64,000 bases of DNA from Escherichia phage vB_EcoM_G37-3. Shown piece by piece: positions 46,919 through 49,133 of the stretch. Every line of letters begins with the position of its first letter. Positions within the stretch are counted from its first letter, which is position 1. The DNA is taken from the sequence record MK327941.1, one strand, 5' to 3'. The position numbers and the translations under genes are program-made. Under the pieces are notes generated by a model that was not told where the DNA came from, searched no databases, and saw only the letters and a program-made list of their open reading frames with translations.

Positions 46919-47253
46919 TTGTAACCCTCCTCTGAAAGCACATCCCAGATCGTTGCGTCAAGATGCATTAAATTCCACATAATAGAGTCATAACTACCGA
47001 AGCCAGAAGTAAAAATTACATCACACTGGCGATATGTCTTATGAAAATCGGTGGCTGTCTCTGCATCAATCGGCATATCGTCACCGGAAAGCACCAGACA
47101 TTTAAGAATCATAACTCTGTTAGCCGTTGGCGCTTGCTTAGTCTTTTCAGCATATTTTTCGATGATCCGTTTTGCCTTTTCTTCTTTGATACGTCCAGAC
47201 CAAATCCGGTTTCGGTATTGATTCATAATAATTTCAATCACATCATTTTGCAT
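46915..47253 (-). CDS. hypothetical protein (112 aa)
   Basis: ORF with overlap to neighbours. Confidence 0.45.
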   Translation of the reverse strand: MQNDVIEIIMNQYRNRIWSGRIKEEKAKRIIEKYAEKTKQAPTANRVMILKCLVLSGDDMPIDAETATDFHKTYRQCDVIFTSGFGSYDSIMWNLMHLDATIWDVLSEEGYK

Positions 47254-47452
47254 TCTTCACGGTCTCCATAATTGTTTTGTAAGCCAGCTTAAGATGATCA
47301 CCGAAAAACTTTGCAGTGTTACCCTTCGGATCGCGGAGCATGGTTTCTACGATCTCATCGGCAGTAACAATTTCTCCTTTCTTTGCTGCATGTTCTACCA
47401 TATACTTCAAAGTTTCTTCGGAAGCAAGTGCTGCGGCTACTGGATTAATCAT
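47243..47452 (-). CDS. hypothetical protein (69 aa)
   Basis: AAAGGAGAACCAAA leader after an early promoter. Confidence 0.45.
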   Translation of the reverse strand: MINPVAAALASEETLKYMVEHAAKKGEIVTADEIVETMLRDPKGNTAKFFGDHLKLAYKTIMETVKNAK

Positions 47453-47481
47453 TTTGGTTCTCCTTTGTTGTCGATGTGTGC

Positions 47482-47510
47482 ATTATGCTATACCCTATTC
47501 CTGTTGTCAA
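47482..47510 (-). promoter_or_regulatory. early promoter (PeSL-type) TTGACA-N17-CATAAT
   Basis: Hexamers on minus strand; approximate. Confidence 0.5.
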
Positions 47511-47520
47511 CACCTAAAAA

Positions 47521-47551
47521 CGAAAAAGCCACCCTTTCGGATGGCTTTTTG
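47521..47551. terminator. bidirectional intrinsic terminator hairpin
   Basis: AAAAAGCCACCCTTTCGGATGGCTTTTT with A/T runs on both sides. Confidence 0.6.
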
Positions 47552-47780
47552 ATTATATTTTATTCACGTCCATTTGTATAGTAGTGTTTGAATCGACCTT
47601 TGCTAAACTAGTTAAACATAGTAACCAATTCACCATCCCTTTCCAATGATAACCCTTCCTCGTCTTAGACGGGTCTTCCGATTCGGCAGTAATTGAACAC
47701 GCGAAAGTATGAGGAAGCCAAATAGTTGTGTTAATGCTAGTATTCTTTTACTTCTGGTATGCATCCCACGGTGACTAACA

Positions 47781-48179
47781 TTAAGCCAGTTGAGTGAGTT
47801 TATAAATTGTTTTAAAGCATAGAGCTTTGATATCGTCTAAAACACTCTGTAACGAGCTATCAACATCATTATAAATCTCACTAGCCATTTGCGTTAACTC
47901 TTGCAAATAGGCAATTTCGCTAATCTCCTTGCGGACGACCAACTTTGGCTGATAACGACCAGTGATCCCAATATTGGTTTCAGTGAAATTATCAACCAAT
48001 TCTTGCATTTCAAGATAGAACTCTTCTAGAGCCTTATGTTTTGCATAAGATCCAGGACCAGTTACCCCAAAATGCGCAGAATGCATATAAGTAACACTCA
48101 TCAGACATTCACCGATAAAGCGGTCAACTTTATTAGCCTTTCCCTCTTCGGACGTCTTTAGAAAATCACTGAATTTCAT
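47781..48179 (-). CDS. Dps-like (ferritin superfamily) protein
   Basis: 132 aa from ATG at 48179 behind GGAGA RBS; ferroxidase-type spacing H-x12-H-x15-D-x3-E (SAHFGVTGPGSYAKHKALEEFYLEMQELVDNFTE). Confidence 0.55.
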   Translation of the reverse strand: MKFSDFLKTSEEGKANKVDRFIGECLMSVTYMHSAHFGVTGPGSYAKHKALEEFYLEMQELVDNFTETNIGITGRYQPKLVVRKEISEIAYLQELTQMASEIYNDVDSSLQSVLDDIKALCFKTIYKLTQLA

Positions 48180-48468
48180 GTTCTCGATTCTCCATATTAT
48201 GCAACAGAACAAATTGTTGTGCGGCATATCCCCCCATAATAAAACACTGCCTAGAATCCATACATTTACTACGAGCATACATCTTCATAATATGGGCATG
48301 AAATTTCTGGCTGGTTTCAATGGAAGGAGATATTTTGTTTACATATACTATCATTGCGCCGTCGAAATAATCAGTAAAGTCACCAGTTGGATCATATTGA
48401 TCAGCACTGACACTTCCGACCGCAGTCAAGCATATTGCCGCTGTTAGAGTTTTACGAATAAATGACAT
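48166..48468 (-). CDS. secreted/periplasmic protein (100 aa) with N-terminal signal peptide
   Basis: MSFIRKTLTAAICLTAVGSVSA signal-like N-terminus; GGGGGA RBS. Confidence 0.5.
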   Translation of the reverse strand: MSFIRKTLTAAICLTAVGSVSADQYDPTGDFTDYFDGAMIVYVNKISPSIETSQKFHAHIMKMYARSKCMDSRQCFIMGGYAAQQFVLLHNMENREHEIQ

Positions 48469-48502
48469 AAGTCATTCCCCCAGATTGAAAATATTCAGTT
48501 AT

Positions 48503-48510
48503 ATTTATAA
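48503..48510 (-). promoter_or_regulatory. T4-type late promoter TATAAATA
   Basis: Minus-strand TATAAATA in the loop of a 9-bp inverted repeat CCCCAGATT/AATCTGGGG, between tk and the secreted-protein gene. Confidence 0.45.
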
Positions 48511-48536
48511 TCTGGGGCTTTATTTATGATTAACTC

Positions 48537-49133
48537 TTATTTGGTAGTACCGTCAATAAAATGTTTACGGCACACAGAAACATATTTATCCTCTGCGCCG
48601 ACTTCTATTTGAGCACCATCGCGAATAACATTACCCTCTTTATCTACACGAAGGACCATTGTTGCTTTCTTGCCACAATGACAAATACCTTTCATTTCGA
48701 CCAGTTTATCAGCAAGTGCCATCAATGCCGCAGATCCTTCAAATAGATTGCCCTGAAAGTCAGTGCGAAGGCCATAGCACAGTACAGGGATATTTGCATC
48801 ATCGACAAGCGCACACAAGCCTAAAACATGCTCTTTAGTCATAAATTGGGCTTCGTCTACAAAAACTGCATCTGGACGCCATCGATCCGGTCTACGTTTA
48901 CCTAACGATTCACGATAAACCAAATCGAAAAGATCATCCGATTTAGTGAAGGTGATCGCTGGAGCACTTAGACCAATTCGGGAAACAACTTCACTTTCTG
49001 AATATCGATTATCAATCGCTGGCTTAAGAATTAATACTCGCATATCACGTTCGGTATAGTTATAAGCACTTTGTAACAGAGAAGTTGATTTGCCAGCGTT
49101 CATAGATGCATAGTAGAAATATAATTGCGCCAT
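48537..49133 (-). CDS. tk: thymidine kinase
   Basis: 198 aa; P-loop NAGKST, zinc ribbon CHCGKKA...VCRKH; colinear with T4 Tk. Confidence 0.92.
   Translation of the reverse strand: MAQLYFYYASMNAGKSTSLLQSAYNYTERDMRVLILKPAIDNRYSESEVVSRIGLSAPAITFTKSDDLFDLVYRESLGKRRPDRWRPDAVFVDEAQFMTKEHVLGLCALVDDANIPVLCYGLRTDFQGNLFEGSAALMALADKLVEMKGICHCGKKATMVLRVDKEGNVIRDGAQIEVGAEDKYVSVCRKHFIDGTTK

What the first reader, a model, noticed from the sequence alone, without database searches (positions are those of the whole stretch)
47781..48179. Dps-like mini-ferritin with intact ferroxidase spacing
The ORF from the internal ATG at 48179 (132 aa) carries the Dps helix A/B pattern with His, His, Asp and Glu at the spacing of the Dps di-iron site (H-x12-H-x15-D-x3-E). 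I do not recall Dps-type proteins as part of the T4 core set. It could protect DNA or manage iron and oxidative stress during infection; it sits with secreted proteins next to tk.
Basis: partly seen in the sequence, partly recalled or inferred. Interest (0 to 1): 0.6.

Follow-up and report, generated by a model that had tools for sequence, protein, structure and literature searches.

The report
Phage T4 rI.-1 gene: compact Dps-like protein
The ORF is a real gene, this phage's copy of the T4 gene rI.-1, and it encodes a small ferritin-fold protein distantly related to bacterial Dps that keeps the Dps iron-site residues, a resemblance databases already label but nobody has tested.

Summary
The window is Escherichia phage vB_EcoM_G5211, a Krischvirus. 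ORF 47781-48179(-) encodes 132 aa with H36-x11-H48-x14-D63-x3-E67. The motif occurs once in the six-frame translation of the window and in 31 of 200,000 shuffles of the protein.

The gene is the ortholog of T4 rI.-1 (Pfam DUF5856, PHROG 858), so T4 itself has it. It overlaps the stop of the rI antiholin gene, lies downstream of a TATAAATA late promoter and is followed by a terminator.

- **Sequence:** PDB searches hit only Dps-type proteins at E of 1e-4 to 8e-6, with the four residues on the ferroxidase ligands.
- **Conservation:** the four positions are kept in almost all of about 170 diverse family members.
- **Against membership:** Pfam Ferritin is not hit, the BC helix and the Trp are missing, and the oligomeric state is unknown.

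Most likely it is a divergent Dps-like metal-binding or ferroxidase protein that acts at least as a dimer. This is untested. RefSeq already names it "starvation-inducible transcriptional regulator", probably a garbled Dps label, while the papers I could search call it function unknown. Interest is moderate.

The parts
47781..48179 (-). CDS of the rI.-1 ortholog (G5211_00085), 132 aa plus stop; DUF5856 / PHROG 858; compact Dps-like four-helix bundle
   Evidence: ORF and sequence. Pfam DUF5856 at E = 1e-20 and PHROG 858 at E = 4e-43. Annotated as rI.-1 in JSE and in the source record. AF2 pLDDT 87-92.
47979..48083 (-). Segment encoding the putative intersubunit metal site. Codons: H33 48083-48081, H36 48074-48072, H48 48038-48036, E52, Y55 48017-48015, D63 47993-47991, E67 47981-47979.
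   Evidence: Alignments to Dps chains and to E. coli Dps. Uniqueness and shuffle test. Family conservation.
48190..48193 (-). Shine-Dalgarno-like GGAG 10 nt upstream of the ATG, inside the 3' end of rI
   Evidence: Read directly from the sequence.
48166..48468 (-). rI antiholin (lysis-inhibition) gene. Its stop overlaps the start of rI.-1 by 14 nt, so the two are probably translationally coupled and co-transcribed.
   Evidence: Pfam Antiholin at E = 3e-23, PHROG 1246 lysis inhibition, JSE annotation.
48502..48509 (-). T4-type late promoter box TATAAATA in the tk-rI intergenic region
   Evidence: One of only 3 matches in the window. The position matches the T4 late promoter upstream of the rI operon described in PMC2962797. 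The count in the window is not itself above chance.
47523..47550 (-). Intrinsic terminator hairpin (12-bp stem, T-run) about 230 nt downstream of the rI.-1 stop; end of the transcription unit
   Evidence: Terminator scan. Also annotated by ARNOLD in MK327947.
48537..49133 (-). Thymidine kinase gene tk, upstream neighbour (context only)
   Evidence: ORF and annotation.

Best explanation
**What it is.** The ORF is the Krischvirus ortholog of T4 rI.-1. It is the last gene of the tk-rI-rI.-1 unit and is translationally coupled to the rI antiholin gene. In T4 the rI operon (there rI.1, rI and rI.-1) is reported to be read from early and late promoters. Here only a late-type TATAAATA box was located, and rI.1 is absent.

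**What it encodes.** The product is a 15-kDa acidic protein (pI 5.2) that folds as a compact ferritin-like four-helix bundle. It is a divergent, phage-specific homolog of bacterial Dps.

**Inferred mechanism.** As in Dps, H36 at the end of helix A and H48 at the start of helix B lie about 22-28 Å along helix B from D63 and E67. They therefore cannot form one site within a monomer. Two subunits packing antiparallel would build two intersubunit metal sites, with H36/H48 from one chain and D63/E67 from the other, and with the conserved Y55 between them. The protein would bind Fe(II), or another divalent metal, and oxidise it with H2O2 or O2. That would lower Fenton damage to phage DNA and to the infected cell. 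This could matter most during the prolonged, lysis-inhibited infection controlled by the neighbouring rI.

**Shown:** the gene, its homology, its fold, the placement of the residues and their conservation.

**Inferred:** dimer or dodecamer assembly, the identity of the metal, ferroxidase chemistry and the physiological role.

My confidence that it is a Dps-homologous ferritin-fold protein with a conserved metal site is about 0.85. My confidence that iron detoxification is its role is about 0.45. The confidence given below, 0.55, is for the whole statement.
For: - **Identity and context:** the window is 100% identical to MK327947. The gene is annotated as rI.-1. T4 RI.-1 aligns with all five residues.
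- **Homology to Dps:** a single-sequence phmmer search of PDB returns almost only Dps-type proteins among its 20 hits at E <= 10, the best at E = 1.2e-4. The 129-member family profile finds S. aureus Dps at 7.7e-6 and HP-NAP at 2.4e-5. hhalign against E. coli Dps alone gives E = 1.1e-3. The second-best PHROG hit is PHROG 3636, 'DNA binding protein', at E = 7.6e-7.
- **Residue placement:** H36/H48/D63/E67 align with Dlp-2 H28/H40/D55/E59 and with E. coli H51/H63/D78/E82. E52 falls on E. coli D67. Y55 falls on the conserved Dps Tyr.
- **Selection on the site:** the four ligand positions are kept in 169 of the 171 family proteins that cover them (172 family proteins plus the query were aligned). 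That includes all 42 long fusion proteins. In the 129-member alignment H36, E67 and Y126 are invariant.
- **Family size:** 1930 clusters at 50% identity and 1422 phage genomes.
- **Physiology hint:** over-expressing T4 rI.-1 slightly prolongs lysis inhibition and relieves the growth defect caused by RIII (PMC2962797).
Against: - No Pfam Ferritin (PF00210) hit for this protein at E <= 10, nor for any of 129 members at E <= 0.01. The NCBIfam Dps model gives only 15 bits against a cut-off of 114. hhalign probability against a single E. coli Dps sequence is only 20%.
- The protein is 15-35 residues shorter than Dps. The model has a 14-residue loop where Dps has the BC helix, and a short helix C.
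- The Trp next to the first ligand is Phe here and Leu or Phe in most members.
- Most family members have an A-B loop three residues shorter, so the H36-H48 spacing is x8 rather than x11 in them. The site geometry may therefore differ from Dps.
- The domain sits inside proteins of 687-1934 aa, which is hard to reconcile with a closed 12-mer cage.
- No metal binding, oligomer or activity data exist. The N-terminal tail is not basic and the pI is 5.2, so Dps-style DNA binding is unlikely.
Confidence: 0.55

Rival explanations
1. It is a lysis-inhibition accessory protein. The ferritin-like bundle would be a scaffold, possibly metal- or redox-sensing, that acts with RIII and the cytoplasmic domain of holin T to stabilise lysis inhibition. 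It would not be an iron-detoxifying enzyme.
For: - The gene overlaps the rI stop and is co-transcribed with rI.
- The rI - rI.-1 adjacency is kept across Straboviridae genera: T4, JSE and a Klebsiella phage, and many rows.
- Over-expressing rI.-1 slightly delays the collapse of lysis inhibition and acts synergistically with rIII (PMC2962797; review PMC6832632).
Against: - The family is common in phages without rI, T holin or RIII. Ackermannviridae place it next to primase and 'structural' genes. The jumbo phage RaK2 has a homolog but no T, RI or RIII (PMC3622015). Metagenomic contigs show unrelated neighbours.
- Near-invariance of four metal-ligand residues argues for chemistry rather than a mere scaffold.
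- The effects reported by Golec et al. are small and come from over-expression.
Confidence: 0.18
2. It is a virion-associated protein, inside the capsid or co-injected, that sequesters metal to protect packaged or incoming DNA.
For: - The Limestonevirus homolog is 117 aa and 13.15 kDa. It matches LIMEstone1 ORF78, an 'unknown structural protein' of 13.15 kDa found by virion ESI-MS/MS with 3 peptides and 28% coverage. The paper says all such unknown proteins have structural counterparts in ViI (PMC3296691).
- Foldseek against viral models finds Dps-like domains fused to proteins named prohead protease, ParB or NUDIX.
- DUF5856 occurs inside giant proteins of 687-1934 aa.
Against: - The same MS study also found ligase, gp44, PhoH and rIIB in virions, so carry-over of soluble proteins is plausible.
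- A dense cage-like oligomer could co-purify with phage.
- This protein has no (L/I)xE prohead-protease site in its N-terminus (read from the sequence).
- From my own knowledge, RI.-1 is not listed in the T4 head proteome.
- The names of the fused partners were not verified.
Confidence: 0.1
3. It is a metal chaperone or store that supplies iron or manganese to phage metalloproteins, such as the di-iron NrdB subunit of ribonucleotide reductase or the iron-binding long-tail-fibre tip, rather than acting against oxidative stress.
For: - The metal-site evidence is the same as for the best explanation.
- The gene lies in the nucleotide-metabolism neighbourhood, next to tk.
- From my own knowledge, T4-type phages encode a di-iron RNR, and T4 gp37 coordinates iron.
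Against: No consistent linkage to nrd or tail-fibre genes was seen in the contexts sampled. There is no precedent among Dps proteins for directed metal delivery.
Confidence: 0.1
4. It is a DNA-binding transcription regulator, as the RefSeq and PHROG product name 'starvation-inducible transcriptional regulator' states.
For: The product name appears in PHROG 858 and in the RefSeq records of T4, JSE and many other phages.
Against: - There is no helix-turn-helix or other DNA-binding domain in Pfam.
- The fold is ferritin-like.
- The protein is acidic, with pI 5.2, and its N-terminal tail is not basic.
- The name is most simply a garbled transfer of an old Dps description, 'starvation-inducible DNA-binding protein' (my inference).
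Confidence: 0.03
5. The motif arose by chance in an unrelated helical protein, or the ORF is not a real gene.
For: Helical bundles give weak Foldseek E-values of about 1e-2, and there is no Pfam Ferritin hit.
Against: - The gene is conserved in 1422 phage genomes.
- The motif is unique in the window and appears in 31 of 200,000 shuffles.
- PDB sequence hits are almost exclusively Dps-type proteins.
- The motif residues are nearly invariant across the family.
Confidence: 0.01

Closest known systems
Bacterial Dps mini-ferritins (E. coli Dps, Listeria innocua Dps, B. anthracis Dlp-1/Dlp-2, H. pylori NAP)
   Same: - Ferritin-like four-helix bundle.
- His at the end of helix A, His at the start of helix B, and Asp-x3-Glu further along helix B, with identical spacing in this protein.
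- A conserved Tyr seven residues after the second His, and an acidic residue four residues after it.
- The A-B turn reads VTGP as in Dlp-2.
   Different: - About 15-35 residues shorter, with no predicted BC helix and a short helix C.
- Phe or Leu replaces the ligand-adjacent Trp.
- Below the thresholds of the Pfam Ferritin and NCBIfam Dps models.
- The 12-mer cage, iron core and DNA binding are untested. The protein is acidic and has no basic tail.
- It is encoded by lytic phages.
T4 RI.-1 (rI.-1, also called MobD.6; Pfam DUF5856; PHROG 858; PHA02604)
   Same: It is the ortholog. It has the same position downstream of rI, the same MKFSDF N-terminus and a similar length (128 against 132 aa), with about 31-35% identity in the two alignments, and the same five conserved residues.
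   Different: - The Krischvirus lineage has a 3-residue insertion (G41-P42-G43) in the A-B loop, which restores the exact Dps loop length. T4 and most of the family lack it.
- This phage has no rI.1 gene between tk and rI.
Recognised phage-encoded Dps proteins (Lactobacillus plantarum myophages; 'Gratiaviridae' and other gut phages)
   Same: They are phage-borne ferritin-superfamily proteins proposed to limit oxidative or iron damage during infection (PMC6669764, PMC8008677). They appear as weaker structural neighbours in BFVD.
   Different: Those are full-length Dps proteins of about 150-180 aa that ordinary Dps profiles detect. DUF5856 is a separate, more divergent and far larger family. It was not counted in those surveys, and Benler et al. 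state that DPS-like enzymes had been seen in only seven Lactobacillus phages.
Dimeric Dps-like proteins (for example P. aeruginosa PA4880, PDB 8w1d, dimeric form)
   Different: There is no detectable sequence relationship beyond the fold, and the oligomeric state of the phage protein is unknown.

Membership tests
Pfam DUF5856 / PHROG 858 / T4 RI.-1 family | Significant match to the family profiles above the curated threshold | tested here: met
   DUF5856 scores 75.1 bits against a cut-off of 34.6, E = 1e-20. PHROG 858 gives E = 4e-43 over residues 1-131.
Pfam DUF5856 / PHROG 858 / T4 RI.-1 family | Orthologous position: immediately downstream of rI and tk in Straboviridae | tested here: met
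   The order tk - rI - rI.-1 is found on the same strand, with the rI stop overlapping the rI.-1 start. The same order occurs in JSE, T4 and a Klebsiella phage.
Ferritin-like superfamily (fold level) | Up-down-down-up four-helix bundle with a long B-C crossover | tested here: met
Dps (mini-ferritin) family | Intersubunit ferroxidase ligands His, His, Asp, Glu with spacing H-x11-H-x14-D-x3-E (Listeria 31/43/58/62; E. coli 51/63/78/82) | tested here: met
   H36/H48/D63/E67 align to these positions in HMMER and MAFFT alignments. They are nearly invariant in the family. In most other family members the first spacing is x8, or x11 counted from H33.
Dps (mini-ferritin) family | Match to the curated Dps/ferritin profiles (Pfam PF00210 Ferritin; NCBIfam Dps equivalogs) | tested here: not met
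   No PF00210 hit at E <= 10, and none in 129 members at E <= 0.01. NF006975 scores 15 bits against a cut-off of 114, E = 0.019. Only direct comparison with Dps sequences of solved structures is significant.
Dps (mini-ferritin) family | Conserved Trp next to the first His ligand (E. coli W52, Listeria W32) and Tyr seven residues after the second His in many Dps proteins | tested here: inconclusive
   The Trp position is F37 here. Across the family it is L in 74, F in 45 and W in 9 of 129. The Tyr is present (Y55, 125/129) and aligns with the Dps Tyr. Neither residue is a metal ligand.
Dps (mini-ferritin) family | Short BC helix in the B-C loop, contributing to the two-fold interface | tested here: not met
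   Both AF2 models show residues 74-87 as a loop without a helix, with pLDDT about 85-94. This is a prediction only.
Dps (mini-ferritin) family | Assembly into a hollow dodecamer with 23 symmetry and acidic three-fold pores | not testable with these tools
   No multimer prediction or model coordinates were available. Conserved acidic residues D107, D115 and D/E116 at the start of helix D are compatible with pores. Occurrence of the domain inside 687-1934-aa proteins argues against an obligatory closed cage.
Dps (mini-ferritin) family | Fe(II) binding and oxidation by H2O2/O2; iron core formation | not testable with these tools
   This needs biochemistry. No published data were found.
Dps (mini-ferritin) family | Basic N- or C-terminal tail for DNA binding (in DNA-binding Dps such as E. 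coli) | tested here: not met
   Residues 1-17 contain 4 Lys and 3 acidic residues. The whole protein has pI 5.17. The tail is variable or absent in the family. Not all Dps proteins bind DNA, so this is not disqualifying.

The most novel reading that the evidence does not exclude
DUF5856/RI.-1 would be a very large, phage-specific clade of miniaturised Dps whose conserved intersubunit metal site is catalytically active. It has at least 1930 clusters at 50% identity and occurs in T4 itself. Phages would use it as an infection-stage or virion-borne antioxidant and iron trap.

In T4-like phages it would be wired to the rI lysis-inhibition operon, to keep the long-lived infected cell and the accumulating phage DNA intact. 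In Ackermannviridae, and in giant or prohead-protease fusion proteins, it would be carried in the particle. That would be loosely analogous to ferritin-like cargo in encapsulins, which have an HK97-fold shell.

If so, the third gene of the classic rI operon would gain a biochemical function, and oxidative or iron stress management would turn out to be a widespread, overlooked phage function.
Probability: 0.2. Interest if true: 0.7.

Novelty: new variant of a known kind. Interest (0 to 1): 0.45.

Why it matters
rI.-1 is a gene of the classic T4 rI operon. It is conserved in more than 1400 sequenced phages, yet the searchable literature still lists its function as unknown or as a vague lysis-inhibition accessory.

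Annotation pipelines have attached a Dps-derived but misleading name, "starvation-inducible transcriptional regulator". Surveys of phage Dps-like genes did not count this family.

The Dps ferroxidase ligands are almost invariant across this large, divergent family. That turns a DUF into a directly testable hypothesis: a metal-binding or ferroxidase protein acting at least as a dimer. It also suggests a concrete link between prolonged infection, or virion stability, and iron or peroxide chemistry.

For genome annotation, the practical point is that the product name should read "Dps-like ferritin-fold protein RI.-1", not "transcriptional regulator".

Tried and rejected
- **Longer reading frame.** The 165-aa ORF from 48278 is rejected. 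It lies inside rI in another frame, and the homologs start at MKFSDF.
- **Pfam Ferritin and NCBIfam Dps profiles.** No usable hit. Membership by curated profile therefore fails, and homology rests on the PDB sequence searches and the fold.
- **BLASTP against E. coli Dps.** Nothing (E = 6.3). hhalign of the family against the single E. coli sequence gives only 20% probability and E = 1e-3. In that alignment E. coli H51 falls on H33 rather than H36, which reflects the 3-residue shorter loop of most members.
- **The search for related loci on bacterial genomes.** It failed twice, with A2 and A4, because no stretch was conserved enough. Whether cellular genomes or prophages carry DUF5856 was not determined.
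- **Genomic context of distant members.** Searches show no recurrent functional neighbour, with no nrd, iron or catalase genes. This gives no guilt-by-association clue.
- **Pfam and PHROG scans of the long fusion proteins.** No second recognisable domain was found, apart from DUF3008 in one protein.
- **Rfam scan of 47200-48600.** Only sub-threshold hits driven by the terminator.
- **Literature searches.** Searches for DUF5856, for Dps-like with T4-like, and for phage Dps with ferroxidase found no characterisation of this family.
- **Dimer prediction.** I considered predicting a linked dimer to test the interface.
- **Capsid-targeting idea.** MKFSDF resembles the T4 capsid-targeting sequence MKTYQEFIAE only loosely, and there is no (L/I)xE cleavage site. 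I did not pursue it.
Full report
**1. The observation**

The window is 100% identical to Escherichia phage vB_EcoM_G5211 (MK327947), a Krischvirus of the RB49/JSE group in the Straboviridae. On the minus strand an ORF runs from the ATG at 48179 to the TAA at 47781-47783 and encodes 132 aa. A GGAG lies 10 nt upstream of the ATG. The start overlaps the stop of the preceding gene by 14 nt.

The mechanically longest ORF, 165 aa from 48278, lies inside that preceding gene in another frame. It is not the gene, because the homologs, including T4 RI.-1, begin MKFSDF.

The protein has three histidines in all: H33, H36 and H48. With D63 and E67 they give H36-x11-H48-x14-D63-x3-E67. The true spacing is the canonical Dps spacing: position differences of 12, 15 and 4, as in E. 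coli Dps H51/H63/D78/E82, which I counted on the sequence fetched.

The pattern occurs exactly once in the six-frame translation of the 64-kb window, at 47979-48074(-). It occurs in 31 of 200,000 shuffles of the protein.

**2. What the gene is**

Pfam assigns the protein to DUF5856 (E = 1e-20). PHROGs assigns it to family 858 (E = 4e-43), whose name is "starvation-inducible transcriptional regulator".

- The source record annotates it as a hypothetical protein with the conserved domain "rI.-1 PHA02604".
- In phage JSE the orthologous gene is named rI.-1.
- The upstream neighbour (48166-48468, -) is the RI antiholin (Pfam Antiholin E = 3e-23, PHROG lysis inhibition).
- Upstream of that lies tk (48537-49133, -).
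- T4 has the same arrangement, tk - rI.1 - rI - rI.-1. Its 128-aa RI.-1 aligns over the full length, at about 31-35% identity in the two alignments, with H33, H36, H48, D63 and E67 all conserved.

T4 itself carries this gene. A tblastn search finds it in 1422 phage records. These are mostly Straboviridae of Escherichia, Klebsiella, Salmonella, Shigella, Enterobacter and Aeromonas, but they also include Ackermannviridae.

A T4-type late-promoter box, TATAAATA, sits at 48502-48509(-) between tk and rI. A strong intrinsic terminator lies at 47550-47523(-), about 230 nt after the stop. This matches the published T4 description of an rI operon read from an upstream early promoter and a late promoter downstream of tk (PMC2962797).

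**3. Is it related to Dps?**

*Sequence.* phmmer of the single protein against all PDB chains returns 20 hits at E <= 10, and nearly all of them are Dps-family proteins. The best are B. anthracis Dlp-2 (E = 1.2e-4), B. brevis Dps and Dlp-1 (2.3e-4) and S. aureus Dps (3.1e-4). A profile of 129 diverse family members gives S. aureus Dps 7.7e-6 and H. pylori NAP 2.4e-5.

In every printed alignment H36 falls on the His of the Dps "HW" motif and H48 on the second His. D63 and E67 fall on the Asp-x3-Glu pair. Y55 falls on the conserved Dps Tyr seven residues after the second His. The A-B turn reads VTGP, as in Dlp-2. A MAFFT alignment with the host's own Dps is ungapped across this region. It pairs H36/H48/E52/D63/E67 with E. 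coli H51/H63/D67/D78/E82.

*Structure.* AlphaFold2 gives a confident four-helix bundle. With 18 sequences pLDDT is 87.3, and with 129 sequences it is 91.7 with pTM 0.85. The helices span 3-37, 44-73, 88-105 and 108-130.

- In Foldseek against PDB, nearly all of the top 50 hits are Dps chains, with TM 0.55-0.76 and probability 1.0. E-values are only about 1e-2, as is usual for helical bundles.

*Limits.* Curated profiles do not recognise the protein. There is no Pfam Ferritin hit at E <= 10 for it, or at E <= 0.01 for any of 129 members. The NCBIfam Dps equivalog scores 15 bits against a cut-off of 114. BLASTP against E. coli Dps finds nothing. hhalign of the family against that single sequence gives E = 1e-3 but only 20% probability.

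The family is therefore a distant offshoot of Dps, not a Dps by database criteria.

**4. Is the site under selection?**

An exhaustive profile search of 1.84 billion cluster representatives finds 1930 DUF5856 clusters at E <= 1e-3 and 294 at E <= 1e-10. In an alignment of 129 of the best 150 plus close relatives, H36, E67 and Y126 are invariant. The other counts out of 129 are:

| Position | Conserved in |
|---|---|
| H48 | 128 |
| D63 | 128 |
| Y55 | 125 |
| H33 | 123 |
| G71 | 122 |
| T124 | 120 |
| D115 | 116 |

Aligning all 172 retrieved proteins plus the query to the family HMM, 169 of the 171 that cover all four ligand positions keep them. That includes all 42 proteins longer than 165 aa. 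Position 33 is His in 148 and Trp in 19.

Mean column identity is only 23%, so this is strong purifying selection on exactly the Dps ligand set.

One subtlety concerns the A-B loop. Only the Krischvirus-type lineage has the three extra loop residues G41-P42-G43: the query and 7 of the 172 other proteins aligned. In all other members the loop is three residues shorter. There H36 to H48 is x8, and H33 to H48 is x11. The window's protein thus happens to reproduce the Dps spacing exactly. The family as a whole keeps both His residues of the HxxH pair, so site geometry in the family may not be identical to Dps.

**5. Mechanism**

*Shown:* H36 ends helix A. H48, Y55, D63 and E67 lie on one continuous helix B.

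*Inferred from helix geometry:* at 1.5 Å per residue, H48 is about 22 Å from D63 and about 28 Å from E67. A single chain therefore cannot bring all four residues together.

From established knowledge of Dps (Grant et al. 1998 for E. coli, Ilari et al. 2000 for Listeria), the ferroxidase centre is built across the two-fold interface. The two His residues come from one subunit and Asp and Glu from the other.

The simplest reading is that RI.-1 forms at least an antiparallel homodimer with two such sites. Y55 would sit near the dyad. It would bind Fe(II) or another divalent metal and oxidise it with H2O2 or O2.

Whether dimers go on to form a 12-mer cage is open. Several features differ from Dps:

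- The protein is 15-35 residues shorter than Dps.
- Both models lack the BC helix.
- Helix C is short.
- The ligand-adjacent Trp is Phe here and mostly Leu or Phe in the family.
- The domain occurs at the N-terminus of 200-300-aa proteins and inside proteins of 687-1934 aa with no other recognisable domain.

These features are more compatible with a dimeric unit than with an obligatory closed shell. The protein is acidic (pI 5.17) and has no basic tail. Direct DNA binding of the E. coli Dps type is therefore unlikely. Protection would come from removing Fe(II) and peroxide.

**6. Biological role**

Published work on T4 rI.-1 consists of over-expression experiments. rI.-1 alone slightly delays the collapse of lysis inhibition. 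With rIII the delay is larger, and rI.-1 relieves the growth inhibition caused by RIII. The protein is described as hydrophilic, 129 aa, pI 5.6, function unknown. The paper makes no mention of Dps, ferritin or iron (PMC2962797; review PMC6832632).

The rI - rI.-1 pairing is conserved in T4, JSE, this phage and a 178-kb Klebsiella phage. However, the family is not restricted to phages with lysis inhibition.

- Ackermannviridae carry it next to primase, with no rI.
- The jumbo phage RaK2 has a homolog but no T, RI or RIII (PMC3622015).
- Metagenomic contexts are heterogeneous.

I therefore favour a general metal and oxidative-stress function that T4-like phages co-express with rI. It would plausibly be useful when the infected cell must survive for hours. 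I rank a dedicated lysis-inhibition accessory role as the main rival.

**7. A lead seen on the way**

The Limestonevirus homolog (Dickeya phage JA15 ASD51263) is 117 aa and 13.15 kDa. It matches LIMEstone1 ORF78, an "unknown structural protein" of 13.15 kDa. That protein was detected in purified virions by ESI-MS/MS with 3 unique peptides and 28% coverage.

ORF78 belongs to a small cluster of virion proteins, ORF78-85. Two of its neighbours match by mass too (20.28 and 22.75 kDa). The authors state that all 12 unknown structural proteins have structural counterparts in phage ViI (PMC3296691; gene order).

Foldseek against viral models also finds Dps-like domains within proteins named prohead protease, ParB/sulfiredoxin and NUDIX hydrolase.

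This raises the possibility that some family members are carried in the particle. The evidence is weak. The same MS run detected ligase, gp44, PhoH and rIIB. An oligomeric cage could co-purify with virions. The N-terminus of the window's protein has no prohead-protease (L/I)xE site.

**8. Comparison with what is known, and novelty**

The gene is not new. It is rI.-1, a named T4 gene with a Pfam DUF and a PHROG.

The resemblance to Dps is implicit in database labels. The PHROG and RefSeq name is "starvation-inducible transcriptional regulator". One JGI label reads "DNA-binding ferritin-like protein". The first label is probably a corrupted Dps description, and as a functional statement it is unsupported: there is no DNA-binding domain, and the fold is ferritin-like.

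I found no analysis or experiment treating RI.-1 as a Dps-like protein in the literature I could search. A 2021 survey states that DPS-like enzymes had been seen in only seven Lactobacillus phages. It adds the "Gratiaviridae" and 36 other genomes (PMC8008677; PMC6669764). So this far larger family went uncounted there.

I file it as a divergent, phage-specific variant of the Dps kind. The fold and the ligand set are met. The curated-profile match, the BC helix and the Trp are not met. Cage assembly and activity are untested.

**9. Verdict**

The homology and the ligand placement are right. The "mini-ferritin" cage and the function are untested. The impression that T4-type phages lack such a protein is wrong.
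- Interest is moderate, at 0.45. A specialist would not be astonished, since the pipelines already hint at it. But the analysis makes the unknown function of rI.-1, a long-known T4 gene, directly testable.

Noticed in passing
window 47453-47780 (- strand): About 330 nt without an annotated gene lie between the rI.-1 stop and the next CDS (47243-47452). The stretch holds a strong terminator hairpin (47550-47523), followed at once by a near-consensus sigma-70 promoter, TTGACA-17-CATAAT (47510-47482, 11/12). Upstream of the terminator is about 230 nt of untranslated tail containing only a 44-aa ORF (47630-47764). The Rfam scan gave only sub-threshold hits.
   Followed up: partly
window 48469-48536 (tk-rI intergenic region): This phage, like JSE, has no rI.1 gene between tk and rI, whereas T4 does. 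The 68-nt spacer holds the TATAAATA late-promoter box (48502-48509). The source record also annotates a putative terminator here, at window 48478-48517.
   Followed up: partly
window 48047-48055 (codons G43, P42, G41, - strand): A 3-residue insertion, G-P-G, in the A-B loop is found only in the query and 7 of the 172 other proteins aligned, those of the Krischvirus-type lineage. It restores the exact Dps loop length and the Dlp-2-like 'VTGP' turn. Most DUF5856 proteins have the shorter loop.
   Followed up: yes
P0089 (1934 aa, L009 8001-13805), P0155 (1439 aa), P0133, P0132, P0098: The DUF5856 domain, with intact H/H/D/E residues, is embedded in giant phage proteins that have no other Pfam or PHROG domain. 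P0098 carries a long acidic, low-complexity linker before the domain. There are also many 200-300-aa proteins with the domain at the N-terminus and variable C-terminal extensions.
   Followed up: partly
L002 5983-6336 (Dickeya phage JA15 ASD51263); L014 2516-2869 (Salmonella phage dinky): The Ackermannviridae homolog equals LIMEstone1 ORF78, which was detected in purified virions by MS at 13.15 kDa with 3 peptides. It sits in a small cluster of MS-detected 'unknown structural proteins' next to the primase gene.
   Followed up: partly
BFVD hits A0A6J7XDU5, A0A6J7WIS1, A0A6J7WPK9, A0A6J5LAB8, A0A8S5MNG7: These viral proteins are named prohead protease, ParB/sulfiredoxin or NUDIX hydrolase and contain a Dps-like four-helix domain that resembles the model structurally. 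Neither the names nor the domain boundaries were verified.
   Followed up: no
Phage records OM912978.1 (Salmonella phage CF-SP2) and JX181825.1 (STML-198), rows H73 and H74: In these S16-like Salmonella phages the tblastn match covers only residues 1-87 of the protein. The gene may be truncated, split or diverged in its C-terminal half.
   Followed up: no
L005 and L011 (metagenomic T4-like contigs): In two distant T4-like contigs the DUF5856 gene lies downstream of tk, a DUF1190 gene and a glutathionylspermidine-synthase-like (GSP_synth) gene rather than directly after rI. GSP_synth is itself linked to thiol and redox metabolism, which may or may not be meaningful.
   Followed up: no
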